The position numbers were made by a program, and so were the translations under genes. Of a stretch of DNA of 64,000 nt, positions 33,224-52,974 are shown in pieces. This DNA comes from an uncultured Dehalococcoidia bacterium (GTDB taxonomy: Bacteria; Chloroflexota; Dehalococcoidia; SZUA-161). The stretch lies in contig CAZNOI010000004.1 in NCBI GenBank assembly GCA_964574685.1, forward strand, positions 64,930-128,929, given 5' to 3'. How positions within the stretch are numbered: the stretch's first letter is position 1; each line of letters opens with the position of its first letter. The notes under the pieces were generated by a model. It searched no databases. It worked only from the letters and a program-made list of their open reading frames with translations, and was not told the origin of the DNA.

Positions 33224-33244
33224 CTTTTCTCCCTCTCTACTCGG

Positions 33245-34009
33245 TTAAGCTGCCGCAGAAAGCGCGGCGCCCAGGGCACTGACGTATTGAGCGTTCTCGG
33301 GGATCAGGACGTCCGTGCCGAGGTGTTTCTTCATCACATCGACGATTGCTGCATTGTTAGCAACCCCGCCGATGAGAGCCACGTCATTCTGTACAGAAAG
33401 CCTTCGGACCATGGAAGAGACCCTGGATGCTATCGCATCGTGCACTGCGTGTGCTATGTCCGCCTTCGCGATCCCGGAGTGTATGAGCGATACAACCTCG
33501 GATTCTGCGAAGACCGCGCAGGTCGCGTTTATGGGAGCGTCCTGGGTGGACTTCAGCGACAGGTCGATCATCTCCGGGACCTTGATCTCGAGCGCTCTCG
33601 CCATGCTCTCTACGAAGGCTCCGGAACCGGCCGCGCACTTGTCGTTCTTGGCGAAGTCCAGCACCTTGCCCTGCTCGTCGGTGCTGATCCCACGGGCTTC
33701 CTCGGCACCAATATCTATGATTGTCCTGACGGAAGGATGGAGATGGGTGATGCCTCTGGCGTCGGCCGTTACCTCGGTAACTGTCTTGTTGGCCCAGGGG
33801 AGCGATTTGCGGCCCGCGCCGGTGGCGACGATTGCCTGCACGTCCTCGCTCTTGATACCGGCCTGATTCACTGCTTCCTTGTACAGCTTGTCAGCCGTTT
33901 CAACGGGCTCGAAGCCTGTGTAACCCACGGTGCGTGCCAGCACCTTGTCACCATCGAAGATGACAACCTTGATGGAGTGTGCTCCCATGTCTACGCCGGC
34001 AGATATCAT
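33245..34009 (-). CDS. BadF/BadG/BcrA/BcrD-type ATPase (HgdC-like activase), subunit 1 (BcrA/BzdQ-like)
   Basis: ASKHA fold (MISAGVDMGAHSIK) with the NDKCAAGSG and ATCAVFAESE Cys motifs. It is a paralog of, not identical to, the adjacent ATPase. Confidence 0.8.
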   Translation of the reverse strand: MISAGVDMGAHSIKVVIFDGDKVLARTVGYTGFEPVETADKLYKEAVNQAGIKSEDVQAIVATGAGRKSLPWANKTVTEVTADARGITHLHPSVRTIIDIGAEEARGISTDEQGKVLDFAKNDKCAAGSGAFVESMARALEIKVPEMIDLSLKSTQDAPINATCAVFAESEVVSLIHSGIAKADIAHAVHDAIASRVSSMVRRLSVQNDVALIGGVANNAAIVDVMKKHLGTDVLIPENAQYVSALGAALSAAA

Positions 34010-34046
34010 TTGGATCTCACCTCAATGTATTGTTAGGGGCCTTTCC

Positions 34047-35375
34047 CTAGACCGTCTCCACGAGCTTGGTTATGCCCTGACCTTCGAGGAATGCTTCCAG
34101 TCTGTCCAGAACTCCTGTCTCGTCGATGTCGCGGCAATCCGCGAAATTGCCCTCAAACATCGCGACAGGTATGCCGTGTGCCTGCATGTCTCTCTGGAAG
34201 TCATACATGTTCGTCGTCATGGGCACACAGCCGCGATTCAGAAGGAGCAGGTAGGAATTCGCCTGCCAGTGGTTGTACATGATGATGTACTCCTTCTTCC
34301 TCGTGTCCAGGTGCGACTGGAAGGGATGCTCGTAGCGCCATCTTGCCACCGTCCGGCAAAGATCCTCTCGTGTCTTCATCTCGGGCCAGCCGGGCCTCTC
34401 CTCGGGGACAGTGGCGGGTACGACCCTGTTCTCGTCGTAGAGGAACTTGACCTCACCGGAGTTAATCAGGTACACATACGTCCCTACGAACACCACTCCG
34501 AAATTCTCCAGATAGCGGAACACCTTGAGAAAGCTCCAGGGCGGCGGAGTGAGCATGCACATCCGATAGCGTTCGGTCGATACCGCCGCTATCTGGTTGT
34601 CGATGCGATCCTTCATCTCGTCCCTGAGTGCTGTCAGGAACCTCGTGCCTATCTCTTCGTGCCTCCTCAGCATCGATATGGGCATCAAGGCGAACATGCT
34701 CTTGATATCCAGTGGGGCCGGGATCGCTCCGTTGAGCAGGCATATCTCGCCCCACAGGGCCTCGTTGCGGAAGTAGTTCCGCATGGCGTTGATCGCCTTC
34801 TCATCATCGTACGTGCGTCCCGTGACTTTCTCCATCCATTCGATGGAGTCCATGTACTGTCCCGCGATGTAGTCAATGCGATGCTCATCATCCCCGGCCT
34901 CGGCGAGCATTGACTCGTCGTCGACATAGTTCATGGGCATGCCCTGATAGTCTGACACAATCTCGTGCCACTTGGGGTGCCCTGCCGGACAATGGCGCAC
35001 GCTCCAGGCGAAATCGAATTTGGGGAAGGATCCTCCTGTGAAGTAGTACTTGTCCAGATACATGGAGCCGAGGAAGTTGCGCATGTAGCCGCACATGTCG
35101 CGCGAGTACCCCTTGGCCTCGAAAGCCTCCATGCAGGGGATCGAGAACGGCGGGTCTGCGGCCACGCTCGCTCCGTAAGGTTCGCCCGCCAGGAACACGA
35201 AATCGCCCAGACCGGCGAGCATGCCGTATGGAGTTGCAGCACAGCCGAGGATCATGAGCTTGTCCTCTTCGTGGCCGGAGACCAGCTCCTGGTATGCCTC
35301 CAGCCTCAACTCCTTGCCCCACTGCCAGCAATCCAGGGGCTTGGTCTTGTACTTGTAGATGTCGGTCGTCGTCAT
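34047..35375 (-). CDS. 2-hydroxyacyl-CoA dehydratase / benzoyl-CoA reductase family large catalytic subunit (HgdA/BcrB-like)
   Basis: 442 aa of the PF06050 HGD-D type with a conserved Cys-containing core (RDMCGYMRNFLG). Its size matches BcrB/BzdO. Confidence 0.8.
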   Translation of the reverse strand: MTTTDIYKYKTKPLDCWQWGKELRLEAYQELVSGHEEDKLMILGCAATPYGMLAGLGDFVFLAGEPYGASVAADPPFSIPCMEAFEAKGYSRDMCGYMRNFLGSMYLDKYYFTGGSFPKFDFAWSVRHCPAGHPKWHEIVSDYQGMPMNYVDDESMLAEAGDDEHRIDYIAGQYMDSIEWMEKVTGRTYDDEKAINAMRNYFRNEALWGEICLLNGAIPAPLDIKSMFALMPISMLRRHEEIGTRFLTALRDEMKDRIDNQIAAVSTERYRMCMLTPPPWSFLKVFRYLENFGVVFVGTYVYLINSGEVKFLYDENRVVPATVPEERPGWPEMKTREDLCRTVARWRYEHPFQSHLDTRKKEYIIMYNHWQANSYLLLLNRGCVPMTTNMYDFQRDMQAHGIPVAMFEGNFADCRDIDETGVLDRLEAFLEGQGITKLVETV

Positions 35376-35420
35376 TGTTGAGATGCCTCCAGATGTATAT
35401 TGGGAAGAGTCAGAATCTGC

Positions 35421-36548
35421 TTAGAGTACCTCCAGTTCGGCCATCTCGATGAAGGCCTCTATTCGTGTTCGGAACTGGCCGAAGGGAACGGTCACGTCGA
35501 ATTCAAGGACCACCGTCGGTATGTCGTTCTCCTTAAACATCTCAACGAGCTTGGGGATATCGAACTCGTGAGGATCGCACCACTTCTGCTGATAGAGGAG
35601 GACACCCTGTACGTCCCACTCCTTGGCCATGTCCAGTATCCGCTGGAACCGGGCTCCGGGAGGTCGTCCTATAGCAGGGCACGGCCACCTTGTCACGTAC
35701 CGCTCTGCGATCGCAGCGACTCGATCATCCTGCGGCACGACTTCATCCCAGAAGTACCTGCTGCCGCTGCAGTGCTCGTCGGCGACAAAGGTGCAGTTGA
35801 GCTCCTCTACCTTGCGCACAAATGAGATGTCGGTCATCTCGCTGCCTACCATCATCAGGCGTACACCGACCTCGCGGTCCAGCTTGCGAGACGGCAGCTC
35901 CCGGAGCAGGTCGTCGAGCAGTTTGTTGTGCTCGGCGACGTCCATTATCTGCCCGGCTACCACCATCTCCATCGCTTCCGCGCCGGTAATGGGGGGCTCT
36001 TCCTGCTTGCGGAACTCGTACACCTGCTTCATCAGCCGACGTCGGGTGTTGTAGAGTTCTATGGCCTTGTCCAGATCGTCGTTGGAAAGCTTCTTTCCTG
36101 TGAGCTCCTCCAGGCCAGCGATGACGTCCCTGTACTCACCTGCGAGGCACGGCTGGGCCCGCTTGCTGTCCGTGTGACCCGGCATCCATATGTACTTCAT
36201 GTATGGGAGCGGCACATAGTTGCGCCAGTTGTCGTAGGTACCCTGAATATGCATGCACGTACGACCCATCATCAGGCCGTCCAGGTAGTCATATCTGCCC
36301 TTGAGCCCCTGCGCGAGCGTGTCACGGCAGAAAGGACACACTGTGGGAAACAGGTAGCGGTCCGTCATATCCTGGACCTCGTGTGAGCCGAGCACGCGTA
36401 CCGGCAGGATGCCGAAGGCGTAGAGCAGCTCTTCGGGGACGTAGGTGCAGAGCTCGCCAATTGCCTTGCCGCCGGTGCGTTGCTTCCAATCCTTGGCGTA
36501 CTGGTGTCGGTTCGCCAACACCTCCTGAAACTTCTCGATTGCGCCCAC
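35421..36548 (-). CDS. 2-hydroxyacyl-CoA dehydratase / benzoyl-CoA reductase family small catalytic subunit (HgdB/BcrC-like), GTG start
   Basis: 375 aa with the N-terminal ...AKDWKQRTGGKAIGELCTYVPEELLYAFGILPVRVLG typical of HgdB/HadC/BcrC. It is a paralog of the 58867 gene. Confidence 0.8.
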   Translation of the reverse strand: MGAIEKFQEVLANRHQYAKDWKQRTGGKAIGELCTYVPEELLYAFGILPVRVLGSHEVQDMTDRYLFPTVCPFCRDTLAQGLKGRYDYLDGLMMGRTCMHIQGTYDNWRNYVPLPYMKYIWMPGHTDSKRAQPCLAGEYRDVIAGLEELTGKKLSNDDLDKAIELYNTRRRLMKQVYEFRKQEEPPITGAEAMEMVVAGQIMDVAEHNKLLDDLLRELPSRKLDREVGVRLMMVGSEMTDISFVRKVEELNCTFVADEHCSGSRYFWDEVVPQDDRVAAIAERYVTRWPCPAIGRPPGARFQRILDMAKEWDVQGVLLYQQKWCDPHEFDIPKLVEMFKENDIPTVVLEFDVTVPFGQFRTRIEAFIEMAELEVL

Positions 36549-36629: not shown

Positions 36630-36885
36630 CTAGGTACATTCGCAAATGAGCATCTTCGGGCGACCCAAGTCTCCGTGCCTGCGTGCAACAGGCGAACAAC
36701 TGCGGGTGACAGCTTCCTCAAATCCAGTCTAGCGATGGCAAATAGGGCTGTCAAGCGCTAGCTTCGAAAATCGTCGGTGGTGGTGCATCCGTGCACGCCG
36801 CTCGGGTACGCGTGTCGGAGCGGCTTACGACGCGGGGGAGACTGCTGCGACGATTGGCACAGCCGAGTGCCACATCTGTTCGAAG

Positions 36886-36915
36886 TTGACGCCTCGCTCA
36901 TCAGTGGCCTAAAAT
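36886..36915 (+). promoter_or_regulatory. Putative promoter TTGACG-N18-TAAAAT upstream of ribF
   Basis: Hexamers with 18-nt spacing, followed by AAGGAG at 36924-36929. Confidence 0.35.
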
Positions 36916-36950
36916 ATAGGTTCGAAGGAGTTTGGTTCATCGCAGACAAG

Positions 36951-37898
36951 GTGCAGGTAGTCGACGAGCTGGCAAGGTACACCCCGGAGCGTGAGACGGT
37001 ACTCTCCATCGGGGTATTCGATGGTGTCCACTTGGGGCACCAGCGCCTGCTGTCTCGCCTTGTAGAGCGGGCGTCAGCGGCGGGACGCCTGAGCGGAGTT
37101 GTAACCTTCAGCAACCATCCCAAGAGCGTCTTGTCTCCAGACGGCAGGCTTGGGCGCTTGACCACTCCGGGCGAGCGGTCGACGCTGCTCAGACGACTTG
37201 GCGTGGACATAGTAGTCCCACTCACGTTCCATGAGAAGCTTGCCCATCTCACTGCTCGGGAGTTCGTTGAGTTGCTGATTCGGCATCTGAAGATGAGGGG
37301 TATGGTGGTGGGGCCGGATTTCGCTCTCGGCAGGGGACGAGAGGGCCATCACGCGATGTTGAAGCTGCTCGGCGATGAGCTAGGTTTCACAGTCGAGGTA
37401 GTGGAGCCAGTCACGCAAGACGGCACAATCGTGAGCAGCACGGCGGTCAGGCGCGCTATATCGGGCGGCGAAATGGCGGCGACGTCGAGACTGCTCGGCA
37501 GGCACTTCTCGCTAACGGGAAGGGTAATAGGCGGGACGCAGCGCGGACACTGGCTCGGCTATCCGACGGCCAATCTGAGCGTCGATGAAGAGCAGGCACT
37601 CCCACGGGATGGAGTGTACGCCACGATATGCCACCTCGGCGGCCGGGCGTATCCCTCTGTGACCAATATCGGATCGAGGCCCACCTTCAGCGAAAAGGGC
37701 AGAACCATTGAGGTATTCCTGATCGGTTTCGATGAAGAGATATATGGTGAGGAAATGACGATAGAGCTGGTCGAGCGGATGAGGGGTGTGCTAAAGTTCG
37801 ACAGCCCTGATGAACTGGCCCGACAGATAGGCAAGGATGTTGAGAAGGCCGGGCCGATCCTGCAGAGCGCTCTGGCAGGTGTTACCGACAATGGATAG
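36951..37898 (+). CDS. ribF: Bifunctional riboflavin kinase / FMN adenylyltransferase
   Basis: The VLSIGVFDGVHLGHQ nucleotidyltransferase motif and the C-terminal riboflavin kinase domain (PTANL...GVY). The GTG at 36951 gives E. coli-like N-terminal spacing; the long upstream track ORF is rejected. Confidence 0.8.
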   Translation: MQVVDELARYTPERETVLSIGVFDGVHLGHQRLLSRLVERASAAGRLSGVVTFSNHPKSVLSPDGRLGRLTTPGERSTLLRRLGVDIVVPLTFHEKLAHLTAREFVELLIRHLKMRGMVVGPDFALGRGREGHHAMLKLLGDELGFTVEVVEPVTQDGTIVSSTAVRRAISGGEMAATSRLLGRHFSLTGRVIGGTQRGHWLGYPTANLSVDEEQALPRDGVYATICHLGGRAYPSVTNIGSRPTFSEKGRTIEVFLIGFDEEIYGEEMTIELVERMRGVLKFDSPDELARQIGKDVEKAGPILQSALAGVTDNG

Positions 37899-39129
37899 TC
37901 ACCTGGAATACATCTTCAGGCGTGGTGTAACGGAGATCATAGTCCAGGATGAACTCCTTCGTATGCTTGCCTCCGGGAAGAAGCTCCGGTTGAAGATGGG
38001 TTTCGACCCGAGTCGTCCGGACATCCACCTCGGGCATGTGGTGGGTATGAGGAAGCTGCGCCAGTTCCAGGAGCTGGGCCACCAGGTAGTGCTCATAGTG
38101 GGAGACTGGACCGCGCAGATTGGTGATCCGAGCGGCGCATCTCAGACCAGGCCTATGCTGACGGCGGAAGAGGTGAGGGCAAACGCCGATACCTACATGG
38201 CGCAGTTCTTCAAGGTAGTGGACAGCGAGAAGACGGAGGTAAGGTGGCAGACCGAATGGTTCCGGGATTTCAGCCTGGCTGACGTCGTCAAGCTGACCAG
38301 CAAGTTCACGGTCGCACAGCTACTCGCGCGAGAGGACTTCAGCAAGAGGTACCAGGCGGGACGGCCGATAGCGGTGACAGAACTGCTGTACCCGCTGCTG
38401 CAGGCCTATGACTCGGTGATGATCGAGTCGGACGTCGAATTCGGCGGCATCGACCAGAAGTTCAACTGCCTGATGGGGCGGGAGTTGCAGGAGATGGTGG
38501 GCCAGCCCAGACAGCAGGTGTTTCTCATGCCGCTGCTCGTTGGTACCGAGGGCCGGCAGAAGATGAGCAAGAGCCTGGACAACTACATTGCAGTCGAGGA
38601 ACCCCCGAACCACATGTATGGGAAAGTGATGTCGGTCCCAGACCATGTGATGATGGACTACTTCGAGCTGCTCACGGATGTACCTGACGAGGAGTTGTCC
38701 GAAATGGGTCGGGCGATCCAATCCGGATCGTCGAACCCCATGGAATTCAAGAAGCGCCTGGCCGTGGAGATAGTGACTCAGTTTCACTCGGGGGACGCAG
38801 CCGCTGAGGCGGAAGAATTCTTCGAGAGCACGGTTCAGAGAAAGCAGATACCGGCAGACATCCGTGAGATCCCGTGTCTTCGTGAGGGCGGCAGGCAGAC
38901 TATCGACCTGCCGGGAGTACTGTGTATGAGCGGCCTCGTCAGAAGCAAGAGCGAAGCACGTTCGCTCATGAATACCGGCGCAATTCGGCTCTGGCCCGAT
39001 GGAGACACCACCACACAACCTGTGACCGCTCCGGACCGTCTGCTCGAAGCTGAAGTTGAGCCGGGGGCAGTGGTCAACAAGGGCAAGCTCGCCTGGTTGA
39101 GGCTCGTTGAGGCTTCAAGGCAGGACTAG
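37891..39129 (+). CDS. tyrS: Tyrosine--tRNA ligase
   Basis: Class I HIGH (HLGH) and KMSKS motifs, a GDPSG region and a C-terminal S4-like domain. The ATG overlaps the ribF stop (ATGGATAG). Confidence 0.9.
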   Translation: MDSHLEYIFRRGVTEIIVQDELLRMLASGKKLRLKMGFDPSRPDIHLGHVVGMRKLRQFQELGHQVVLIVGDWTAQIGDPSGASQTRPMLTAEEVRANADTYMAQFFKVVDSEKTEVRWQTEWFRDFSLADVVKLTSKFTVAQLLAREDFSKRYQAGRPIAVTELLYPLLQAYDSVMIESDVEFGGIDQKFNCLMGRELQEMVGQPRQQVFLMPLLVGTEGRQKMSKSLDNYIAVEEPPNHMYGKVMSVPDHVMMDYFELLTDVPDEELSEMGRAIQSGSSNPMEFKKRLAVEIVTQFHSGDAAAEAEEFFESTVQRKQIPADIREIPCLREGGRQTIDLPGVLCMSGLVRSKSEARSLMNTGAIRLWPDGDTTTQPVTAPDRLLEAEVEPGAVVNKGKLAWLRLVEASRQD

Positions 39130-39147: not shown

Positions 39148-39516
39148 CTAGTTCTCCACTCTTATCTCGACCACGCTCTGACGCGCTATGCTCCGCTCGT
39201 GGTCATCCTGACGGACCGTGACGTGCATAAGCCCCAACACCTCATAGTCTCCGTTCTCGAGACCCGAGGTGTCCCAGGTGACAGGAAAGTTGTTGGCCTT
39301 GTCGTCTGACTCCCCGATCTTGATCCAGGTGTCCGCGTGCGTAGCACGGTAGTACCACGGATTCGAGATCCGGACTATCGGCCCGGACAGGCCCAGAGCG
39401 GCCAACTCCCTCTGAAGCAGTTCCTCATCAAGGTTCTCACGCAGCTTCACGATGCCAGAGTACTTGGTCAACACTTCCGAAGGTACGATGAAATGGGGGC
39501 CCCAATCGTATGACAT
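39148..39516 (-). CDS. Hypothetical protein (122 aa), first gene of the small accessory insertion
   Basis: Intact ORF preceded by a 127-bp AT-richer intergenic region. No recognisable motifs. Confidence 0.5.
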   Translation of the reverse strand: MSYDWGPHFIVPSEVLTKYSGIVKLRENLDEELLQRELAALGLSGPIVRISNPWYYRATHADTWIKIGESDDKANNFPVTWDTSGLENGDYEVLGLMHVTVRQDDHERSIARQSVVEIRVEN

Positions 39517-39643
39517 GTGCGCCTCCTTCCCCTGAGAGCTCTACCTTACATATATACGACAGGCGCATTACGCTGTCATTGCAGCATTGTTACGTTGATG
39601 TGATATCTACGCCGTGGAGGTGGGGGAATGCCGGTGGGGGATG

Positions 39644-39898
39644 TCAATGCCGGTCGTGACTCTCTCGTATGGGCATCTCAAGGACCTCTTTCACGTCGTC
39701 GGCCTTGAACCTCCGGTCAGCCCTGGGGCCGATTCTGTAGGTCTTGATCAGACCCAGGTTGCTCCAGCGCCTTAGGGTACTCACGTGCACGTTCAGCATG
39801 CGGGCGGCCTGAGTCAACGTGAGCAGAGGCGAAGCCGTTGAACTGATCAACTCTTCGAGCCGCTCCTTGTCGTAAGGTCCTTTGTGTCGCACAGTCAC
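39644..39898 (-). CDS. Excisionase/MerR-type helix-turn-helix DNA-binding protein (HTH_17-like), GTG start
   Basis: LTLTQAARMLNVHVSTLRRWSNLGLI helix-turn-helix. The GTG start overlaps the stop of the upstream zinc-ribbon gene (GTGA). Confidence 0.6.
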   Translation of the reverse strand: MTVRHKGPYDKERLEELISSTASPLLTLTQAARMLNVHVSTLRRWSNLGLIKTYRIGPRADRRFKADDVKEVLEMPIRESHDRH

Positions 39899-40170
39899 GA
39901 GTTTTCCTCTTCCGTATCCGATTCAGGTTCCGCTAGCTCTTGGATCTGTCTTCCCCTGGCATGTGAATGCCGTTGCGTCTTCGACCCTATGGCCTTGTAT
40001 TCAATGTAGTTCTTGAACTCACACGTCAGCCCGCAATGCTTACAGACCCCCATGCTGACCGGGCCGTCGGCCTTTTCGATTATCCAGTGATGCCTGCAAG
40101 GCCTCTGCCGTGGCTTGGGCCTTGTTCCGGCATGCTTCCTTGCCTCGTTACCTGCCATGTCCAGCCTCAA
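39895..40170 (-). CDS. Small zinc-ribbon protein (CxHH-N14-CxxC)
   Basis: PCRHHW...GVCKHCG cysteine/histidine pattern; translationally coupled to the HTH gene. Confidence 0.45.
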   Translation of the reverse strand: MRLDMAGNEARKHAGTRPKPRQRPCRHHWIIEKADGPVSMGVCKHCGLTCEFKNYIEYKAIGSKTQRHSHARGRQIQELAEPESDTEEENS

Positions 40171-40306
40171 CTTGATAATACCTCCCGGCTCTGTTATAGG
40201 GTGTGACTTTTGTCACTGCGGTCGCCGAAACAGAGATACCGGCAGTGGTGGTAGAGACGGACGATACGCGCCGGATCGATAGGGGATGAAGAAGCGCGGG
40301 GGCTGA

Positions 40307-41335
40307 CTAGGCTTCTACCACTTCAATGGCCTCCTGGAGCACAAGCGGTGCCTTCCAGGGGGCTTCGTCGATATCGGTGATCTCGGCCACGCGACGCAGA
40401 AAACGTCTCAGGCTTATGTTGCCGAAGTGAGCCTCGAAAGCCGGTATCCCCCCACGAGAGGATTGGTCTTCCGGGAGTAATTCGTGCGCCGCGAGCAAAT
40501 CGAGACCTCGCTCACAGACATCGGCGTTGAGGGCGCAGGTAGAATACGCGTCGGGAAAGCAGATGCGGAGGCATGTGGCGAAGGTGTGAGCCCGCTCCCA
40601 CAGAGATGGTAGTTCGCCGGACAGGTCATCCGACTGGTAGGCCTCCGGCACGTGTCTGGGCTCTAGCGCGTTCAGCAGGCGTATCATCCGGCGCGGGTTG
40701 CCATCCGAGGCCGCGAGGAGCATGTTGATGTTGGGCTTTCGGAGTTGCAGCCGTTCCAGGCAATCCGAGTACGCTCCCAGAAGTCGGCTTTGGCTGATGG
40801 GAGGCATGTCGAATTGCTTCAGTACCAGGCGGTCGAGATACTGCCTGCCATAGGCCGCGATCGCCAACATGCCGAAGAACGACGAAATGGAGTGCTCGAG
40901 GTATGCCCTGTTACCGGCAAACACCGGAACGCACCTGTCTCGTACGGCGGGCTCTGTGCATACGTCAATGGCTGCAACAAGGTCAGCGGGAAGACATTGG
41001 TCCAGCTCGTCGACAAGCAGGAAGAGGCCCTTCTCTGCCGCTGACTCCTGGACGCGCTCGATCTTGCCCTTGAAGTGCCGCCGAACAGCCTCCGAATCAG
41101 CGCGGTTGCGTGCCGCCTGATTCGCGGATATCGCAACCACTGCCGCATCCAGCGCCTGCAGTTCCTCCGCCATGAAGTTCAGGAAGCAGGTCTTGCCTGT
41201 GCCGGCCGCGCCGAATACCGCCGCCGCGAACTGCTCGTTTGGAGCCGTGGCAATGGCCTGGGCGAAGGCCCTGGCGTGCGGAGCGAAGCCGAACAGGTCT
41301 TCCGCGCACGCCCTCTTTGGCCTGTCCTGAATCAT
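40307..41335 (-). CDS. KAP-family-like P-loop NTPase (compact, no TM insert)
   Basis: N-terminal DLFGF..ARAFAQAI followed by Walker A GAAGTGKT, Walker B LLVDELD and an NPRRMIRLLN motif resembling the KAP NPR..KR..N signature. Confidence 0.6.
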   Translation of the reverse strand: MIQDRPKRACAEDLFGFAPHARAFAQAIATAPNEQFAAAVFGAAGTGKTCFLNFMAEELQALDAAVVAISANQAARNRADSEAVRRHFKGKIERVQESAAEKGLFLLVDELDQCLPADLVAAIDVCTEPAVRDRCVPVFAGNRAYLEHSISSFFGMLAIAAYGRQYLDRLVLKQFDMPPISQSRLLGAYSDCLERLQLRKPNINMLLAASDGNPRRMIRLLNALEPRHVPEAYQSDDLSGELPSLWERAHTFATCLRICFPDAYSTCALNADVCERGLDLLAAHELLPEDQSSRGGIPAFEAHFGNISLRRFLRRVAEITDIDEAPWKAPLVLQEAIEVVEA

Positions 41336-41389: not shown

Positions 41390-41418
41390 ATACCGAAACG
41401 CCCTGCGTTTCGCAGCGT
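41390..41418 (-). terminator. Hairpin CGCCCTGCG-N11-CGCAGGGCG downstream of the EF-G paralog, followed by TTTCGGTAT on the minus strand
   Basis: 9-bp GC stem 33 nt after the EF-G stop. Confidence 0.35.
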
Positions 41419-41450
41419 CGCAGGGCGTCAGACGTGAATCACCTCGGAGT

Positions 41451-43493
41451 TCAGGACTTGTCGCCTTCCTTCTTGGACTCCTCGACTATCTTCTGCGCCA
41501 GATGTGCCGGCACTTCCTCGTAGTGGCTGAATTCCATGCTGTAGGTCCCTCGACCCTGTGTGATCGAGCGGAGGTCCACCGAGTATTTCTGCATCTCCTC
41601 TTGAGGTACCTGCGCATCTATTGTGTTCCGGCCGTCGCCCGGGTTCATGCCCAGAACGCGGGCGCGCTTGGAATTCAGGTCACTCATGACGTCGCCGGTG
41701 TACTGCTCCGGGACTGTGATATGGACGTTCATGATGGGCTCCAAGAGTACCGGCTGAGCCTGCAGGACGCCCTTCTTCGTCGCATGTAACGCAGCGAGCT
41801 TAAAGGCCATGTCGGAGGAGTCGACCGGATGAGAACTCCCGTCGTATAGGGTCACCTTCATGTCCGTCACAGGATAGCCCGCCATCACCCCATCGTTCAG
41901 GGCCTCCATCACGCCCTTCTCGACAGCCGGGATGTAGTTCTTGGGCACCGAGCCACCCACGACCCTCTCACCGAACTCGAAGCCGCTGCCGCGGGGGAGA
42001 GGCGCCAGCTCGATGAGTACATGGCCGTACTGACCGTGGCCCCCCGTCTGCTTCTTATGCTTGTACTCCGCGTTCGTCTGGGTCTTGATCGTCTCCTTGT
42101 ACGGTATCTTTGGAGTGGCGATGGTAACGTCGACCCCGAACTTCCTCTTGAGCCTGTCCACCGACACATCGAGATGAGTGTCGCCGACTCCAGTCAGGAC
42201 TGTTTCCGACGTGACCGGGTCCTTATGAACTGACAGCGTCAGGTCCTCCTCAACCAGCCTCTGGAGCGCGGGGCCCATCTTGTCCAGGTCTCCCTTGGTC
42301 TTGGGATATACGGCCACACTCAGATTCGGCGAAGGGAACTCCAGGCCTTCGAGTATGAGTGGGTGCTCCTTCGTGCAGAGGGTGTCGCCGGTGACGGTCT
42401 CGGCGAGTTTGGCCACAGCGCCGATATCACCGGCGGGTATTTGCGGCACGGCCTCCTGGTTCTTGCCTCGGATGAGGAAGAGTTGCCCTATCCTCTCACC
42501 AGTCTCTCTGTTCGCATTCCAGACGGTCGAATCGCTGCTGAGGGTTCCGCTGTAGACGCGCAGGTACGTAAGCTTGCCCACGTACGGGTCGGCGGTGGTC
42601 TTGAAGACAAGAGTTGCGAGCGGCCCGCTCTCATCGGCTTCGAGAGCCTCCTCCTTGCCCGTCTGGGGACTCTTCGCCTCAACGGGCCCCCGTCCCCTGG
42701 GGGAGGGCAGGTACTTGCATATGGCGTCCATGACGGCTTCGATGCCCTTGGACTGCGCGACCGAACCGACGAGTACCGGCACGATGCTGCCCTGTGTGGT
42801 CCCGGCAAACAGGCCGCGCCGGATTTCGTCCTCGGTGAGTTCCTCGCCTTCGAGATACTTCGTGGTCAATTCGTCGTCGGATTCGGCTATGGCCTCCATC
42901 AGCTTGTCATAATATCCGGACACCTTGTCGGCGACACCAGCCGGCGCTTCGCCGGACGACAACAAGTCGTAAGTCCCTTCGAAGCTGCTCTCAGCCCCGA
43001 CAGGCAACTGGATCGGTACGCATTTCCTGCCGAGGACCGACTCGATCTGGCCCATCGTCTTGTAGAAGTCTGCGTTCTCCCGGTCCATTTTGTTGACGAA
43101 TACCAGGCGGGGCAGTTGCTTCTCCTCTGCGAGCTTCCAGGCGAGTTCAGTTCCGACTTCCACACCAGACGCGGCGCAAACGACAATCACCAGGCCTTCC
43201 ACGACCCGGAGAGCAGCCTTCACCTCGCCGAGGAAGTCGGCATAGCCGGGGGTGTCGATGAGGTTGACCTTGGTCTGGTTCCATTCGAACGGCAGAAGGG
43301 AGACATTGATACTGATCTTCCTCTTCACCTCGTCAGGGTCATAGTCTGAAGTGGTGTTACCGTCTTCTACGCTGCCCAGCCTGCTGATGGCCTTGGTATG
43401 GGAGAGGATCGCCTCCGATAGCGAGGTCTTTCCGGCTCCGGAGTGTGACAGCATTGCGACGTTACGTATCTGGTCGCTCGTGTACTTCTTCAT
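41451..43493 (-). CDS. fusA: Elongation factor G paralog (EF-G2-like translational GTPase)
   Basis: G1 AMLSHSGAGKTS, DTPGYADF, NKMD and all five EF-G domains. No str-operon context, which suggests the second-copy type. Confidence 0.85.
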   Translation of the reverse strand: MKKYTSDQIRNVAMLSHSGAGKTSLSEAILSHTKAISRLGSVEDGNTTSDYDPDEVKRKISINVSLLPFEWNQTKVNLIDTPGYADFLGEVKAALRVVEGLVIVVCAASGVEVGTELAWKLAEEKQLPRLVFVNKMDRENADFYKTMGQIESVLGRKCVPIQLPVGAESSFEGTYDLLSSGEAPAGVADKVSGYYDKLMEAIAESDDELTTKYLEGEELTEDEIRRGLFAGTTQGSIVPVLVGSVAQSKGIEAVMDAICKYLPSPRGRGPVEAKSPQTGKEEALEADESGPLATLVFKTTADPYVGKLTYLRVYSGTLSSDSTVWNANRETGERIGQLFLIRGKNQEAVPQIPAGDIGAVAKLAETVTGDTLCTKEHPLILEGLEFPSPNLSVAVYPKTKGDLDKMGPALQRLVEEDLTLSVHKDPVTSETVLTGVGDTHLDVSVDRLKRKFGVDVTIATPKIPYKETIKTQTNAEYKHKKQTGGHGQYGHVLIELAPLPRGSGFEFGERVVGGSVPKNYIPAVEKGVMEALNDGVMAGYPVTDMKVTLYDGSSHPVDSSDMAFKLAALHATKKGVLQAQPVLLEPIMNVHITVPEQYTGDVMSDLNSKRARVLGMNPGDGRNTIDAQVPQEEMQKYSVDLRSITQGRGTYSMEFSHYEEVPAHLAQKIVEESKKEGDKS

Positions 43494-43805: not shown

Positions 43806-45596
43806 ATGACAGGTCACACGAAGCTAGGCAAGCTGAGTGACATCGGAGAGTTCATCAAGAACGGCAGTTTCGTCGCCATCGGAGGCGGCTGGAGTTGCAA
43901 CAAGCCCATGGCCATTGTGAGGGAGATCATCAGGCAGAAGATAGCCGACCTCAAGGTGATGTCCATCACGGGCGGGTGGGAGATGGAGTGGCTGCTGGCG
44001 GCTGGCGCAGTGGATCATCTGGTCTTCAGTTTCCTGAGCCTGGAAGCATTCGGATTACCTCCCAACTTCCGGCGTGTAGCGCAGGGCAGCCTTATCAAGC
44101 TCACCGAGATCGAAGGCTGCAGCATGATCAAGGGGCTGCAGGCAGCCGGTCGCGGCCTGCCGTTCGCCGCCTTTGCCGGCCCGCGAGGGTCGGACATAGT
44201 AGCGGAGGCGCCTGACCTCTACAAAACCGTCACATGTCCCTTCACGGGGAACGAGTTGACCGCGATCCAGGCCATCGCGCCGGACGTCGCCATCATCCAT
44301 GCGCAGAAGGCAGATGAGCGGGGCAATATCGAGCTGATAGGAACCTCGGCTTCTGATCTGGATATGGCGATGGCAGCAAAGTCCGTAGTCGTAACAGTCG
44401 AGGAGATAGTCTCGGCTGATAAGATCCGTGCAGAGAAGACAGCGACGCAGGTATTCCGGCCGGAGGTATCGCTTGTCATTCCCCAGCCGCTCGGCGCAAC
44501 TCCGTGTAGCTGCGTGCCCTACTACGCGCCTCACCTCACACAGATGATGAAGGACCTCCAGGGCATCGGAAGCCCCAAGACGGCGGGCGACTACATACCG
44601 GGCCTGATTGGGAAGAGCGAAGAGGAGTACCTGAACAATGTCGGTGGAGAGGACACCAGGAAGAAGCTCGCGAGCCTGGCGAAGAACACGAAGCGTGTCA
44701 GTATGCCGGCTTCCCGGACCGAGGAGCCTGCAACCGACTTCGATCAGTCGGCACAGATGGTTGCCAGCCTCGCCCGGACTGTAGACGATGGGGACTCGAT
44801 CATACTCGGGTCTTTCACTCCGCTGGCCTACGCCGCCTACATGCTCGCGAAGCTGACGCACGCCCCCAATGCCTTCGTGGTCGGATACAGCGGCGTCGAT
44901 CCGCTGCCTTTTCAGCTTAGCTTCCATTCATCGGAGGCGGCCTGCACGGAGTTCGCGGCAGGCCTCTGGTCGATGACCGAGTGCATCGAAGCCCTTCACC
45001 TGCGAGGGATGGGCGACGTTGAGGCTGTATCCAGCGCTCAGTTGGACGCCAACGGCGACATCAACATATCATGGCTGGCAACGCCGGTGAAGGACGCGGA
45101 AGGCAATCCAACCGGTGAGATGAATCCCAGGGGACTGAGGCTGCCGGGCGGCGCCGGCGCGCCGGTCGTCTACGGCCTGCACCGCAAGAGTGTTGCTTAC
45201 TTCGCGGCACACTCGAAGCAGGTCTTCGTTCCAAAGGTCAACTACATAACCGGCACACGCTACTACTTCACCGACGAGGAGAGGAAGGCACAGGGACTGC
45301 GGCCCGGGCCGATGACAGTCGTGACCAATCTCTGCGTCATGCAGATGGTTGAGCGAGGGAAGTGGAAGGTGCTCTCGCTGCACAGGGGCGCAACCGCGGA
45401 CGACGTCAGGAACAATACAGGCTTCGAAGTGGACGTGCCCGCGGACTGCCCGACCACGAAGCCTCCCACGAAACAGGAGCTGGAGCTGATCGAGCTGATA
45501 GACCCGCAGGGCATCAGGTTCCTGGACTTCATGAGCGGCAAAGAGCGGGCCGGCAAGCTTCCTTCAATCATACAGGCCGAGTGGGACGCGGCCTAG
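43806..45596 (+). CDS. Family I CoA-transferase with fused A and B subunits (glutaconate CoA-transferase GctA/GctB-like)
   Basis: 596 aa whose N-half resembles GctA (KLGKLSDIGEFIKNGSFVAIGG) and whose C-half resembles GctB. Confidence 0.8.
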   Translation: MTGHTKLGKLSDIGEFIKNGSFVAIGGGWSCNKPMAIVREIIRQKIADLKVMSITGGWEMEWLLAAGAVDHLVFSFLSLEAFGLPPNFRRVAQGSLIKLTEIEGCSMIKGLQAAGRGLPFAAFAGPRGSDIVAEAPDLYKTVTCPFTGNELTAIQAIAPDVAIIHAQKADERGNIELIGTSASDLDMAMAAKSVVVTVEEIVSADKIRAEKTATQVFRPEVSLVIPQPLGATPCSCVPYYAPHLTQMMKDLQGIGSPKTAGDYIPGLIGKSEEEYLNNVGGEDTRKKLASLAKNTKRVSMPASRTEEPATDFDQSAQMVASLARTVDDGDSIILGSFTPLAYAAYMLAKLTHAPNAFVVGYSGVDPLPFQLSFHSSEAACTEFAAGLWSMTECIEALHLRGMGDVEAVSSAQLDANGDINISWLATPVKDAEGNPTGEMNPRGLRLPGGAGAPVVYGLHRKSVAYFAAHSKQVFVPKVNYITGTRYYFTDEERKAQGLRPGPMTVVTNLCVMQMVERGKWKVLSLHRGATADDVRNNTGFEVDVPADCPTTKPPTKQELELIELIDPQGIRFLDFMSGKERAGKLPSIIQAEWDAA

Positions 45597-45633
45597 CGGC
45601 CTGCAATCGATAGAACCTCATTGAGGAGGCACT

Positions 45634-46428
45634 ATGGCATACAAGGTCTTCAAGGTAGAGAAGAAGGAAGGCAATATCGCTGTAATCACTTTCAATCGCC
45701 CGGACAAGTTCAATGCGGCCAATGACCAGATATTCAGAGAGCTGGCGGCGGCAGTAGAGGAGTTGGATGCCGACAAGGAAGTCGGCTGCATAATTCTGAC
45801 CGGGCAGACGTTCACACATCCCAAGAAGGGCACACCATACCCGGTGTTCTCAGCGGGTGCTGATGTGGAACAGTTCGCGGCGGTGGGCCAGACCGAGGCA
45901 GGCTTCGAGTTCATCAAGCTATGCTTCATGCCCTTCAAGGCGATTGAGCTCGCCGAGACGCCCATCATAGCGGCGGTTAACGGTTCGGCGTTCGGCTTCG
46001 GTTTCGAGATCGCCGGGTGCTGCGATATGTCGTTTGCATCCAGGAGCGCGAAGTTCGCGCTGAAGGAGATCAATCACGGTGCGGTGCCCGCCTGGACGAT
46101 TACCCGGGGGCTGGAGAAGTACGGAAAGGCCGTTGTGGCCTATCTCTGCCTATCGGCGAATGAGATAGAGCCCGAGGAAGCGAAACGCCTCGGCATCGTG
46201 ATAGACGTGTATGAGGATGCCGAGCTCCTTCCCAAGTGTGAAGAACTCGCCAGGAGGATCGCTGCAAACAGCTACATGGCCAAGACGTTCATCAAGACCA
46301 CGCTCAACCGGCGTGCCATCGAGGAATACCAGGATGCCGAGCGATTCATGCCCTCCGTCTTCGCAACGCAGTTCATGCAGGGGGCTTTCGCACGGTTCCT
46401 GAAGGGCGATACGCGAGGCAAGCAGTAA
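45634..46428 (+). CDS. Enoyl-CoA hydratase/isomerase (crotonase) family protein
   Basis: ITFNRPDKFNA... oxyanion-hole region with both catalytic Glu positions present. Confidence 0.85.
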   Translation: MAYKVFKVEKKEGNIAVITFNRPDKFNAANDQIFRELAAAVEELDADKEVGCIILTGQTFTHPKKGTPYPVFSAGADVEQFAAVGQTEAGFEFIKLCFMPFKAIELAETPIIAAVNGSAFGFGFEIAGCCDMSFASRSAKFALKEINHGAVPAWTITRGLEKYGKAVVAYLCLSANEIEPEEAKRLGIVIDVYEDAELLPKCEELARRIAANSYMAKTFIKTTLNRRAIEEYQDAERFMPSVFATQFMQGAFARFLKGDTRGKQ

Positions 46429-46487
46429 AAAGCCCCGTCCTTCTGTGAGTGCGCCGCTGCCTGGAAGGCTACTAAGGAGGAGACTGA

Positions 46488-48194
46488 ATGTTCGACGACA
46501 AGACCGTGGAAGCATGCCGGAAGATGATGGAGAAGCACGATGAGCTAATCCAGACCCGCTATCAGGGCAAGGATTTCTCTTCTGCTACCGGATCATCAGA
46601 GATACCTGTGAAGCCTTTCTATACCCCTGCCGACATCGAAGACGTCGATTTCGAGAAGGACATCGGGCTTCCAGGACAGTATCCGTATACTCGAAGCAAC
46701 TACCCCATCCACTATCAGTTCCAGCCCTGGATAAACCAGCCGGTTCACGGCTACGGGCTACCGGAGCACACCCGTGAGAGGATGGACATGCTGGCGAAGG
46801 CCGGTATGGAGGGCTACTTCGGTGGCAGGGCATACAACCTTGTCTGGGACGTGCCAACCTACTTCGGCGTCGATCCCGACGAGCCGGATGCTCAGGGCTA
46901 CCAGGGAAAGGACGGGGTCTGTTGCGTTACCGATGAGGACTTCGGGCGGATGCTCCATGACATCGACCTTTCCAAGACCAACATAGTGCTCATCAACGGC
47001 GATACACTGCCCATTCTAGCCCACTACATCGCCTACGCGGAGAGCCAGGGGGTGCCTCGCGACCAGCTTCGCGGCAACACCATGAACTGGGAGTTCACTG
47101 CGTGGTACGCACCCAACTTCCTCTGGGAGACGGAGGGGGCGCTGAAGCTCGCGACGGACTTGATTCACTTCTGCAGCAACGAGATGCCGAAGTGGAACCA
47201 CACGAACATCCAGGGGCACGGAATCTCGGAGACTGGGGCCGATGCAGTTCACCAGATGGCCTACTCGATAGCCTGTGCGCGCGCTGTGGCCGATTCCTGT
47301 GTGAAGGCGGGCATTGAGCCGGACGCATTCCTGCCTGGCATAGGGTTCCAGATTGCCCAGGGCAACGATTTCTTCGAGTACATCTGCATGTTCCGAGCCT
47401 GGCGAAAGCTCTGGGCCACGGTATGCCGCGAGCGGTTCGGGGCGAAGAAGCCGTCGTCTATGCAACTCAGGACGCACACTCATACGTCATGCTTCGAGCT
47501 GACGAAGCAGCAACCACTCGTCAATCTGATTCGGAGCGCCTACCATGCCCTCGGTGCTGCGCTTTCCGGGACGACCGCGATGGAGATTCCGGGGTACGAT
47601 GAGCCCATCGGCATCCCGACGGAGGAGTCCGCTGTGCTCGCTCTTCGGATCCAGCAGGTGCTCCGGCACGAGACGGGTATAACCAAGGTCGGCGACCCGC
47701 TGGCCGGGTCCTACTATGTGGAGTGGCTGACCAAGAGGATGGAGGAAGAGGGCGCGGCGATACTGAAGGAGATTGACGATGCCGGCGGATTCGTCAAGGC
47801 GCACAAGAGCGGTATGCTCATCAGCAACCTCCGCAAGAGGGCGAACGAGTGGCGGAAGAAGGTGGACAGCGGCGAGCTGACCATCGTCGGCTGGAACAAG
47901 TACATCGTGGAGGAGGAAGAGCCTATCCAGGCTTTCAAGCCGGACCCGGAGGTGGGCAGGATTGCGGCCGAGCGCATCAAAGAGTACAGGGCAAGACGAG
48001 ACCAGGCCAAGACGGACGCTGCGTTGAACGCTCTGGTGGCCGCAGCCGAGAAGCTGGACAAAGGCGAGTACGGGAACGTGATGCCCGCATGTGTCGAGGC
48101 TGCCAAGGCAAAGGCGACGGCCGGTGAGATCTCGAAGGCACTGCGCAAGGTGTTCAAGTGGGGGCCCGAGTACAGCGTCTCGCTGCCGCACTAG
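46488..48194 (+). CDS. B12-dependent acyl-CoA mutase large (substrate-binding) subunit, split HcmA/IcmA type
   Basis: 568-aa methylmalonyl-CoA-mutase-like TIM-barrel domain lacking its own B12 domain. The sizes match the split IcmA/HcmA + IcmB/HcmB architecture. Confidence 0.85.
   Translation: MFDDKTVEACRKMMEKHDELIQTRYQGKDFSSATGSSEIPVKPFYTPADIEDVDFEKDIGLPGQYPYTRSNYPIHYQFQPWINQPVHGYGLPEHTRERMDMLAKAGMEGYFGGRAYNLVWDVPTYFGVDPDEPDAQGYQGKDGVCCVTDEDFGRMLHDIDLSKTNIVLINGDTLPILAHYIAYAESQGVPRDQLRGNTMNWEFTAWYAPNFLWETEGALKLATDLIHFCSNEMPKWNHTNIQGHGISETGADAVHQMAYSIACARAVADSCVKAGIEPDAFLPGIGFQIAQGNDFFEYICMFRAWRKLWATVCRERFGAKKPSSMQLRTHTHTSCFELTKQQPLVNLIRSAYHALGAALSGTTAMEIPGYDEPIGIPTEESAVLALRIQQVLRHETGITKVGDPLAGSYYVEWLTKRMEEEGAAILKEIDDAGGFVKAHKSGMLISNLRKRANEWRKKVDSGELTIVGWNKYIVEEEEPIQAFKPDPEVGRIAAERIKEYRARRDQAKTDAALNALVAAAEKLDKGEYGNVMPACVEAAKAKATAGEISKALRKVFKWGPEYSVSLPH

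Positions 48195-52898: not shown

Positions 52899-52974
<76 letters not shown>

What the first reader, a model, noticed from the sequence alone, without database searches (positions are those of the whole stretch)
39148..41335. Compact four-gene insertion (KAP-like P-loop NTPase, zinc-ribbon protein, Xis/MerR HTH protein, DUF) between the EF-G paralog and tyrS - candidate uncharacterised defence or mobile-element remnant module
The segment is flanked on both sides by conserved housekeeping genes and has its own AT-richer promoter region at 39517-39643. A zinc-ribbon gene is translationally coupled to an excisionase-type HTH gene through a GTGA overlap. The module is headed by a 342-aa P-loop NTPase with KAP-like N-terminal and NPR motifs, Walker A and Walker B, but no membrane insert. 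KAP NTPases and small HTH/zinc-ribbon partners recur in bacterial immunity islands. No integrase or direct repeats are visible, so it may be a degraded island or a stand-alone system.
Basis: inference. Interest (0 to 1): 0.6.

Follow-up and report, generated by a model that had tools for sequence, protein, structure and literature searches.

The report
Three unrelated small gene units
The four small genes between the EF-G paralog and tyrS of this uncultured Dehalococcoidia bacterium are real, but they look like three separate units rather than one defence module: a rare compact KAP ATPase, a zinc-ribbon/HTH regulator pair, and a widely conserved Chloroflexota protein.

Summary
The 342-aa protein passes Pfam KAP_NTPase. 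The 84-aa protein passes HTH_17 and the TIGR01764 excisionase model. The 91-aa protein has a conserved CHCC zinc-ribbon core.

The "four-gene insertion/module" reading is only partly supported.
- A sister species (EF-G2 82% identical) has the same four genes in the same place, so the cluster is inherited, not recent.
- 79 other EF-G2 loci carry none of the four genes and no tyrS nearby, so no empty site exists to show an insertion.
- Composition and codon usage are native. There is no integrase and there are no att-like repeats.
- The 122-aa gene belongs to a family of more than 630 clusters, conserved in Chloroflexota, that occurs elsewhere without the other three genes.
- Zinc-ribbon relatives occur alone on chromosomes or in viral contigs, one directly upstream of an integrase.
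- The nearest KAP relatives are remote. They lack these partners but sit beside a DUF4145 gene or a Type ISP restriction enzyme.

Most likely there are three units: an orphan KAP ATPase of conflict-system ancestry, a mobile-element-derived ZnR–HTH regulator pair, and an independent core gene. The core gene's upstream region carries conserved 11-bp-phased direct repeats.

This is a new member of known kinds, of modest interest.

The parts
41391..41429 (-). Terminator-like hairpin after the EF-G paralog: an 11-bp G+C-rich stem followed by UUUCGGU. It separates EF-G2 from the KAP gene.
   Evidence: minimum free energy -28 kcal/mol, z = -3.0 against shuffles. The sequence was read. The consensus terminator scan did not call it.
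40307..41335 (-). Compact soluble KAP-family P-loop NTPase, 342 aa. It has an ATPase core, a helical lid and a C-terminal helical domain, with no transmembrane insert and no fused effector domain.
   Evidence: Pfam PF07693 33.9 bits against a gathering score of 20. AlphaFold2 model pLDDT 92; the best PDB folds are RFC, ORC, ClpX and RuvB AAA+ subunits. No transmembrane segment. Only one other species has a close homologue, at 47% identity.
40203..40216 (-). Palindrome GTGAC-AAAA-GTCAC inside a conserved non-coding island, 33 nt upstream of the ZnR start codon. It is a candidate operator or promoter element for the ZnR-HTH unit.
   Evidence: GACAAAAGTCACAC is the longest identical non-coding run in the window/sister alignment of this spacer. 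The exact palindrome occurs once in the window. Binding is inferred, not shown.
39895..40170 (-). 91-aa zinc-ribbon protein with core CRHHWIIE..GP.S.G.C..C...EF.NY, a basic N-terminal tail and an acidic C-terminal tail.
   Evidence: Invariant C25, H27, H28, C43 and C46 in six homologues. Only four other proteins were found in the 5.8-billion-protein search. Relatives occur in five viral contigs.
39644..39898 (-). 84-aa HTH_17 / excisionase-type, BldC-like winged-helix protein. Its GTG start overlaps the ZnR stop codon by 4 nt.
   Evidence: Pfam HTH_17 40.8 bits against 27; TIGR01764 33.7 against 28.8; phrog_66 3.7e-10; PDB 6ama (deposited as 'Putative DNA-binding protein', BldC by my identification) 5.8e-4. 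The N-terminus MT.R.K is conserved with the sister species.
39567..39594 (-). Three direct repeats at 11-bp phasing (CGTAAC-N5-TGCAAT-N5-CGTAAT) between the HTH stop codon and the p122 start. They overlap the putative -35 hexamer and are a candidate site for head-to-tail binding by the HTH protein.
   Evidence: One match in the window against 0 in 100 shuffles. The sister species has three perfect CGTAAY repeats at 11-bp spacing at the same place. The repeats are absent upstream of p122 homologues elsewhere. Function is inferred by analogy with BldC (PMC5859096).
39551..39579 (-). Promoter-like ATGACA-17 nt-TATATA upstream of p122, followed by a GGAGG ribosome-binding site.
   Evidence: Read directly. 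The consensus scan did not call it and it is poorly conserved in the sister species. This is weak evidence.
39148..39516 (-). 122-aa beta-sandwich protein of a widely conserved Chloroflexota family. It is an independent gene, not part of a module with the other three.
   Evidence: At least 631 clusters at 64-76% identity, nearly all 122 aa. Other contexts lack KAP, ZnR and HTH. AlphaFold2 pLDDT 83, with no significant PDB fold match.

Best explanation
The interval is a genus-level, vertically inherited patch made of three separate units, not a single four-gene system.

Unit 1 is a compact soluble KAP-family ATPase. It has an AAA+-like core, a lid and a conserved helical C-terminal domain, with no membrane insert and no fused effector. 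It descends from the conflict-system KAP radiation. It most likely acts as a nucleotide-dependent oligomeric switch or sensor, either alone or with partners encoded elsewhere.

Unit 2 is a bicistron. It encodes a CHCC zinc-ribbon protein and a BldC/Xis-type winged-helix protein. These are small DNA-binding proteins of mobile-element ancestry that now serve as a local transcription regulator. They probably autoregulate through the conserved GTGAC-N4-GTCAC box. They probably also bind head-to-tail on the three 11-bp-phased CGTAAY repeats that overlap the promoter region of the next gene.

Unit 3 is a 122-aa beta-sandwich protein that is core to Chloroflexota. In this genus it has come to lie under that repeat element.

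Shown: the genes, their family assignments, their distribution, the lack of co-occurrence elsewhere, the native composition, and the conserved cis elements.

Inferred: DNA binding by the HTH and ZnR proteins at those elements, any regulation of p122, and any role of the KAP protein in defence.
For: ORFs and domains.

Inheritance and synteny:
- The sister species has the same order. Identities are KAP 47%, ZnR 57%, HTH 63% and p122 76%, against EF-G2 82% and TyrS 74%.
- None of the four genes, and no tyrS, lies next to EF-G2 in 79 other loci. In the closest of these with readable flanks, two convergent ORFs that I read as etfA/etfB-like by eye (no family search was run) follow EF-G2 instead.

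p122 is independent:
- Its family has at least 631 clusters of uniform length.
- In other genomes it lies upstream of glutamate-synthase operons or stands alone.
- It has its own spacer and ribosome-binding site.

No co-occurrence elsewhere:
- ZnR relatives stand alone between trkH and an F420-ligase gene in three genomes.
- ZnR relatives also occur in five viral contigs. One lies 3 nt upstream of a Phage_integrase ORF.
- Profile searches over all 109 loci find no second locus that combines any two of the four families.

KAP:
- It belongs to a superfamily of 15,390 representatives, but only 8 score at or below 1e-30.
- The nearest relatives lie beside a DUF4145/PD-T7-4-like gene or a Type ISP restriction-modification enzyme.
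- The fold is a generic three-tier AAA+ architecture with no effector domain.

No sign of a recent mobile element:
- GC3 and codon usage are native.
- There are no att-like repeats and no integrase hit.
- The KAP protein has no phage match, and its only plasmid-collection match is one weak partial hit (28% identity over 41% of the query) in an Acinetobacter record.

Cis elements:
- The palindrome is conserved.
- The phased repeats are conserved and statistically unexpected.
- BldC-type proteins bind phased direct repeats head-to-tail (PMC5859096). The HTH hits PDB entry 6ama, deposited as 'Putative DNA-binding protein' and identified by me as BldC.

A terminator-like hairpin separates EF-G2 from the KAP gene.
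Against: - Only two species carry the cluster. The conserved order KAP, ZnR, HTH across that divergence could reflect functional coupling rather than inheritance alone.
- No convincing terminator lies between the KAP gene and ZnR in the window, so co-transcription is possible.
- Context is known for only two remote KAP relatives and eight ZnR relatives.
A recurrent ZnR-HTH or KAP-HTH pairing elsewhere is therefore not excluded.
- The p122 promoter is an eye-read that the scan tool did not call.
- The repeat motif (CGTAAY) differs from the BldC consensus AATTNNNN(C).
- The HTH scores far below the BldC family cut-off (28.9 against 77).
Confidence: 0.5

Rival explanations
1. KAP, ZnR and HTH form one three-gene conflict (antiphage) system restricted to this genus. 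The ZnR/HTH pair acts as the transcriptional regulator or sensor and the KAP ATPase as the executor. p122 is a bystander.
For: Order and orientation are conserved in both species despite 47-63% protein identity. There is no clear terminator between the KAP gene and ZnR in the window. Remote KAP relatives lie in defence-type neighbourhoods. KAP proteins have been validated as antiphage proteins (PMC13552941). The HTH hits PADLOC mad1 at 1.3e-10.
Against: No other locus combines these families. The KAP model shows no effector domain, whereas validated KAP defences need a large fused C-terminal region (PMC13552941). PADLOC hits are partial domain matches only. The sister species has a G+C-rich hairpin insert right after the KAP stop codon, which suggests separate transcription there.
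Confidence: 0.2
2. The cluster is the degraded remnant of an old integrative element. A cargo KAP gene and the element's small DNA-binding accessory genes (a ZnR and an Xis-like HTH) were left behind after the integrase and att sites were lost, before the two species split.
For: The HTH passes the excisionase domain model and matches phrog_66. ZnR relatives occur in viral contigs, and one sits immediately upstream of an integrase. Distant KAP-family relatives are common on plasmids: the remote relative P0129 matches 259 plasmid records. In the sister species a tRNA-Ala gene lies directly upstream of EF-G2, and that junction is rearranged between the two species.
Against: There is no integrase and there are no att repeats. 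Composition is native. EF-G2, a conserved Chloroflexota gene, lies between the tRNA and the cluster. All genes are intact, and their conserved motifs indicate continued selection. This rival overlaps with the best explanation on ancestry and differs only on present function.
Confidence: 0.2
3. All four genes form one co-functional defence or mobile module inserted between EF-G2 and tyrS.
For: The layout is compact and same-strand, and the cluster is conserved in the sister species.
Against: p122 is a widely conserved Chloroflexota gene found without the others. It has its own spacer and repeat element. EF-G2 and tyrS are not neighbours in any other lineage sampled. Composition is native.
Confidence: 0.05

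Closest known systems
KAP-family P-loop NTPases (Pfam PF07693), including the antiphage KAP proteins EF_KAP, PifA and QatA
   Same: It scores above the Pfam gathering threshold. Walker A, Walker B and the NPR motif are present. The fold is an AAA+-like core plus lid. Remote relatives lie next to defence genes.
   Different: It is much shorter (342 aa) and has no transmembrane insert. It has no large C-terminal 'effector' region like the one required in EF_KAP (PMC13552941). It lacks the family-typical Trp in GxWGSGKT and the AW.YD motif. It scores 37.6 bits against a 600-bit cut-off for QatA, and no QatB, QatC or QatD genes are nearby. Only the first 69 residues match PifA.
BldC / Xis-type small MerR-like winged-helix proteins (HTH_17, TIGR01764)
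   Same: It is a single-domain HTH protein of about 80 aa. It passes HTH_17 and the 'excise' model. Its weak PDB sequence hits include entry 6ama, deposited as 'Putative DNA-binding protein' (BldC by my identification). Conserved 11-bp-phased direct repeats lie next to the gene, which is the type of site BldC binds head-to-tail (PMC5859096).
   Different: It scores below the BldC family cut-off (28.9 against 77). There is no integrase partner, so it is not a demonstrable excisionase. It is paired with an upstream zinc-ribbon gene, which is not a feature of BldC or lambda-type Xis. The repeat sequence differs from the BldC consensus.
Small phage or prophage zinc-ribbon proteins (weak matches to phrog_27296 and DUF5817)
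   Same: It is a short CHCC zinc-ribbon protein with relatives in five viral contigs, one directly upstream of a tyrosine recombinase.
   Different: It reaches no curated family threshold. Here and in three other genomes it is chromosomal with no mobile-element genes attached. Its function is unknown.
MADS (methylation-associated defence system) components mad1 and mad8
   Same: The HTH hits the PADLOC mad1 model (1.3e-10). The KAP P-loop weakly hits mad8 (1.4e-3).
   Different: No methyltransferase or other mad genes are present. The hits are generic HTH_17 and P-loop similarity.

Membership tests
KAP family P-loop NTPase (PF07693) | Pfam model score above the gathering threshold | tested here: met
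   33.9 bits against 20, in two stretches covering residues 80-225. The sister protein and the relatives P0129-P0131 also carry PF07693.
KAP family P-loop NTPase (PF07693) | Walker A, Walker B and the downstream NPR (sensor) motif | tested here: met
   GAAGTGKT, LLVDELDQC and DGNPRRMIRLLN. G45, G47, K48, D109, D112 and N213 are invariant, and P214 and R215 nearly so, across 41 clade members.
KAP family P-loop NTPase (PF07693) | Transmembrane insert within the NTPase domain (typical of many but not all KAP proteins; from my own knowledge of the family's original description, supported by PMC13552941 for EF_KAP) | tested here: not met
   Maximum Kyte-Doolittle 19-residue mean is 1.24. Only about 55 residues separate Walker A from Walker B.
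KAP family P-loop NTPase (PF07693) | Clade-typical GxWGSGKT and AW.YD motifs | tested here: not met
   These Trp residues are nearly invariant in the 41-sequence clade alignment. They are replaced in the window protein and its sister.
QatABCD defence system | QatA equivalog score, plus neighbouring QatB, QueC-like QatC and TatD-like QatD genes | tested here: not met
   NF041923 scores 37.6 bits against a 600-bit cut-off, with a partial match over residues 86-182. The neighbours are EF-G2 and the ZnR gene.
PifA | Full-length similarity to PifA (720-position model) | tested here: not met
   Only residues 2-69 match model positions 6-77.
Excisionase / recombination directionality factor | HTH_17 / TIGR01764 DNA-binding domain | tested here: met
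   40.8 bits against 27, and 33.7 against 28.8.
Excisionase / recombination directionality factor | A cognate integrase and att sites in the same element | tested here: not met
   No integrase-like ORF was found in the 64-kb window, by single-sequence phmmer only. There are no flanking repeats.
BldC family regulators | NCBIfam NF033787 score above cut-off | tested here: not met
   28.9 bits against 77. PDB entry 6ama (deposited as 'Putative DNA-binding protein'; BldC by my identification) is hit at E = 5.8e-4 only.
BldC family regulators | Head-to-tail binding to phased direct repeats | not testable with these tools
   Conserved 11-bp-phased CGTAAY repeats lie beside the gene. Binding itself needs EMSA or footprinting.
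Genomic island / integrative element | Atypical composition, integrase, att repeats, and an empty site in relatives | tested here: not met
   GC3 is 0.66-0.75 against 0.753 +/- 0.037 for the window's genes, and codon log-likelihood is within about 2 sd. There are no repeats and no integrase. No relative has an EF-G2/tyrS junction to serve as an empty site.
Multi-gene defence system (any PADLOC system) | Recurrent co-occurrence of the component genes across genomes | tested here: not met
   Profile searches of all 109 fetched loci show co-occurrence only in the window species and its sister. The sample is limited: contexts for two KAP relatives, eight ZnR relatives and five p122 relatives.

The most novel reading that the evidence does not exclude
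The compact KAP ATPase, the CRHHW-type zinc-ribbon protein and the BldC/Xis-like HTH form a previously undescribed three-component conflict or regulatory system. In it, the ZnR-HTH pair assembles on phased direct repeats and the effector-less KAP ATPase remodels or senses that nucleoprotein complex. That would be a domesticated excision-type complex coupled to a KAP switch.
Probability: 0.1. Interest if true: 0.55.

Novelty: new member of a known kind. Interest (0 to 1): 0.25.

Why it matters
If the cautious reading is right, the practical lesson is about annotation. A tidy same-strand run of small genes between housekeeping genes is not a module. Here comparative context splits it into three units.

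Three pieces could be worth following up on their own.
- An effector-less, soluble, minimal KAP ATPase could be a tractable model for what the KAP core does by itself.
- The CRHHW zinc-ribbon family has no name yet. It is shared between Chloroflexota chromosomes and viral contigs, and in one case it sits where the DNA-binding domain of an integrase would be.
- The 122-aa beta-sandwich family is conserved across Chloroflexota and has no assigned function.

None of this changes current understanding of bacterial immunity.

Tried and rejected
- Exact-sequence look-up of the window KAP protein found nothing on record.
- Metagenome and viral scans with the KAP alignment found only the sister species or nothing. 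The tool picked N-terminal peptide patterns, which limits their reach.
- tblastn of the KAP protein found no phage match and only one weak partial hit (28% identity, 41% of the query) in the plasmid collection.
- tblastn of the ZnR protein against phage genomes found nothing.
- The viral scan with the HTH gave only 32%-identity hits, which are uninformative.
- Sequence searches of solved structures gave nothing useful for KAP, ZnR or p122.
- Foldseek of p122 against PDB gave only generic Ig-like sandwiches with TM-scores of 0.5 or below.
- Rfam found no RNA element in the spacers.
- No att-like direct or inverted repeats flank the cluster.
- The consensus promoter and terminator scan found nothing on the coding strand.
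- I considered QatABCD, PifA and MADS membership and rejected all three. The hits are partial domain matches only and the partner genes are missing.
- I considered recent horizontal insertion and rejected it, because composition is native and the sister species shares the arrangement.
Full report
**What is there**

The window comes from an uncultured Dehalococcoidia bacterium, judging by the record titles of the related loci. On the minus strand, one search lists four ORFs at exactly the reported coordinates:
- 40307-41335 (342 aa)
- 39895-40170 (91 aa)
- 39644-39898 (84 aa)
- 39148-39516 (122 aa)

They lie between an EF-G paralog (41451-43493, minus strand) and tyrS (37837-39129, plus strand, convergent).

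The 342-aa protein passes Pfam KAP_NTPase (33.9 bits against 20). It has Walker A GAAGTGKT, Walker B LLVDELDQC and an NPR motif. It has no hydrophobic segment.

The 84-aa protein passes HTH_17 and the TIGR01764 excisionase-type domain model.

The 91-aa protein fits no curated family. Its core, C-R-H-H-W-I-I-E...G-P-x-S-x-G-x-C-x-x-C...E-F-x-N-Y, is invariant in six homologues, which fits a CHCC zinc ribbon.

The 122-aa protein fits nothing in Pfam, NCBIfam, PADLOC or PHROGs.

The GTGA stop/start overlap is real. The 'AT-richer' spacer is only 54.3% GC against 59.1% for the window. The consensus scan called no promoter on the coding strand.

**Is it an insertion?**

A sister species was recovered repeatedly from metagenome assemblies and from one MAG (L001-L007, L092). 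It has the same genes in the same order between the same neighbours. Protein identities to the window are:

| Protein | Identity |
|---|---|
| EF-G2 | 82% |
| TyrS | 74% |
| p122 | 76% |
| HTH | 63% |
| ZnR | 57% |
| KAP | 47% |

So the cluster predates the split of the two species.

Among 79 further EF-G2 loci from Chloroflexota and beyond, none has any of the four genes, and none has tyrS downstream of EF-G2. In the nearest of these with readable flanks, two convergent ORFs follow EF-G2; I read them as etfA/etfB-like by eye, and no family search was run. EF-G2 and tyrS are therefore not an ancestral pair that was split. No empty site is available, and 'insertion' cannot be shown.

GC3 and synonymous codon usage of the four genes lie within about 1-2.5 sd of the window's genes. 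No att-like repeats flank the cluster. No integrase-like ORF was found in the window (a weak test). No Rfam element lies in the spacers.

**Is it one module?**

The evidence says no.

*p122.* This protein belongs to a family of at least 631 clusters (at 90% identity). Nearly all members are exactly 122 aa and 64-76% identical, and those that carry a name are labelled Chloroflexota, apart from one Thorarchaeota-labelled record. In three other genomes it stands alone or directly upstream of a Pyr_redox_2/glutamate-synthase operon, with no KAP, ZnR or HTH nearby. Its AlphaFold2 model (pLDDT 83) is a small beta-sandwich with no significant PDB match.

*ZnR.* Only four other relatives turned up in the 5.8-billion-protein search. 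In three genomes the relative is a lone gene between trkH and an F420-ligase gene. Relatives also occur in five viral contigs. In L103 the relative lies 3 nt upstream of a 184-aa catalytic-domain-only Phage_integrase ORF.

*KAP.* The word-based search found only the sister protein. A full HMMER pass over 1.84 billion representatives places it in the KAP superfamily, with 15,390 hits at or below 1e-3 but only 8 at or below 1e-30. Two of the three nearest relatives with any context are informative:
- P0130 overlaps an upstream DUF4145 gene that matches PADLOC PD-T7-4.
- P0131 lies beside a Type ISP restriction-modification enzyme.

Neither has a ZnR or HTH partner. Profile searches with all four families over all 109 fetched loci find co-occurrence only in the window species and its sister.

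**The KAP protein itself**

With a 41-sequence alignment the AlphaFold2 model is confident (pLDDT 92). It shows a P-loop core, a helical lid and a helical C-terminal domain. Foldseek returns clamp-loader, ORC, ClpX and RuvB subunits at E of about 1e-5 and TM-scores below 0.5. This is generic AAA+ architecture with no recognisable effector domain.

Compared with its clade, it and its sister have lost the Trp of GxWGSGKT and the AW.YD motif. The ATPase core is only 36% identical between the two species, against 62% for the C-terminal half.

Experimentally validated antiphage KAP proteins need both a large fused C-terminal region and Walker B (PMC13552941). QatA is an accessory DNA-binding oligomer (PMC13279940). 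The window protein matches QatA, PifA and PDC-S20 only partially and scores far below the QatA cut-off. I therefore file it as a KAP-family member but not as a member of any named defence system.

**Cis elements and a mechanism**

A terminator-like hairpin follows EF-G2 (z = -3.0).

Upstream of ZnR, the only long conserved non-coding run between the two species is GACAAAAGTCACAC. In the window it forms the palindrome GTGAC-AAAA-GTCAC at 40203-40216, which is unique in the window.

Between the HTH stop codon and the p122 start lie three direct repeats at 11-bp phasing: CGTAAC-N5-TGCAAT-N5-CGTAAT (39567-39594). The window has one match where 0 of 100 shuffles have any. The sister species has three perfect CGTAAY repeats with the same phasing at the same place. 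p122 homologues elsewhere lack them.

Among solved structures, the HTH has only weak sequence hits. The relevant one is PDB entry 6ama, deposited as 'Putative DNA-binding protein', which I identify as BldC (E = 5.8e-4). BldC is a small MerR/Xis-like protein that oligomerises head-to-tail on phased direct repeats (PMC5859096).

My best reading is that ZnR-HTH is a domesticated, mobile-element-derived DNA-binding pair. It would autoregulate at the palindrome and, in this genus, act on the p122 promoter region through the repeats. This reading is inferred and needs EMSA to test. The KAP gene would be a separate orphan of conflict-system ancestry.

**Rivals**

- A three-gene KAP+ZnR+HTH system remains possible (about 0.2). 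The order is conserved and no clear terminator separates the KAP gene from ZnR in the window.
- A decayed integrative element remains possible (about 0.2). This rests on the excisionase-type HTH, the phage-borne ZnR relatives, and the tRNA-Ala gene that sits directly upstream of EF-G2 in the sister species at a rearranged junction.
- The original four-gene module is contradicted for p122 (about 0.05).

**Verdict**

The cluster holds new members of known kinds: a KAP NTPase, an HTH_17 protein, an unnamed zinc-ribbon family and a conserved hypothetical protein. Interest is modest (0.25). The most novel reading not excluded is a KAP switch coupled to an Xis/BldC-like nucleoprotein complex. I give it about 10%.

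Noticed in passing
window 39567-39594 (minus strand); L001 11820-11847: Three direct repeats of CGTAAY at exact 11-bp phasing lie between the HTH stop codon and the p122 start. They are conserved in position in the sister species, unique in the window (0 expected by chance), and absent upstream of p122 homologues elsewhere.
   Followed up: partly
window 43806-52974; L001 3389-7836: The region upstream of EF-G2 is rearranged relative to the sister species. The ECH-HpaB-3HCDH-adh_short-tRNA-Ala block is inverted. Three window genes (43806-48194) have no counterpart next to EF-G2 in the sister, where tRNA-Ala lies directly upstream of EF-G2.
   Followed up: partly
window 39148-39516; L087, L089 and L091 at 6001-6369: The 122-aa protein defines a large, length-invariant Chloroflexota family (at least 631 clusters, 64-76% identity) with a beta-sandwich fold and no annotation. 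In two of three other contexts it sits directly upstream of a Pyr_redox_2/glutamate-synthase (GATase_2, Glu_synthase, GXGXG) operon.
   Followed up: partly
L103 4926-5780 (IMGVR_UViG_2654588087_000001): A CRHHW-type zinc-ribbon ORF (98 aa) lies 3 nt upstream of a 184-aa ORF that is only the catalytic domain of a tyrosine recombinase (Pfam Phage_integrase, 4e-32). The zinc ribbon may supply the missing DNA-binding module of a split integrase.
   Followed up: partly
L097 6352-8239; L098 1590-3477: The remote KAP relative P0130 overlaps by 8 nt an upstream DUF4145 gene that matches PADLOC PD-T7-4 (9.5e-11). This is a possible two-gene DUF4145-KAP defence candidate in a different organism.
   Followed up: no
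window 36777-39129: The longest tyrS ORF (start 37837) overlaps the ribF ORF by 62 nt. The alignment with the sister TyrS starts at residue 16, so the true tyrS start is probably near 37882. The ribF ORF is likewise about 55 codons longer than in the sister.
   Followed up: no
window 40307-41335: The KAP protein evolves unevenly. The ATPase core (residues 1-160) is 36% identical to the sister protein, against 62% for the lid and C-terminal helical domain. Both proteins have lost the clade-typical Trp residues near Walker A.
   Followed up: partly
window 32018-36548: A benzoyl-CoA-reductase / 2-hydroxyacyl-CoA-dehydratase-type cluster (two HGD-D subunits, two BcrAD/BadFG ATPases and a ferredoxin) is 83-93% identical to the sister species. 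A second, diverged HGD-D paralog lies at 58861-59958.
   Followed up: no
L093 and L095, about 7.7-10.8 kb: In two of the three genomes where the ZnR relative sits between trkH and the F420-ligase gene, transposases (IS110, DDE_Tnp_1, Transposase_mut) and a HEPN_Swt1 gene lie a few kb downstream. The third genome (L094) has none, so that site looks like a local hotspot for insertions.
   Followed up: no
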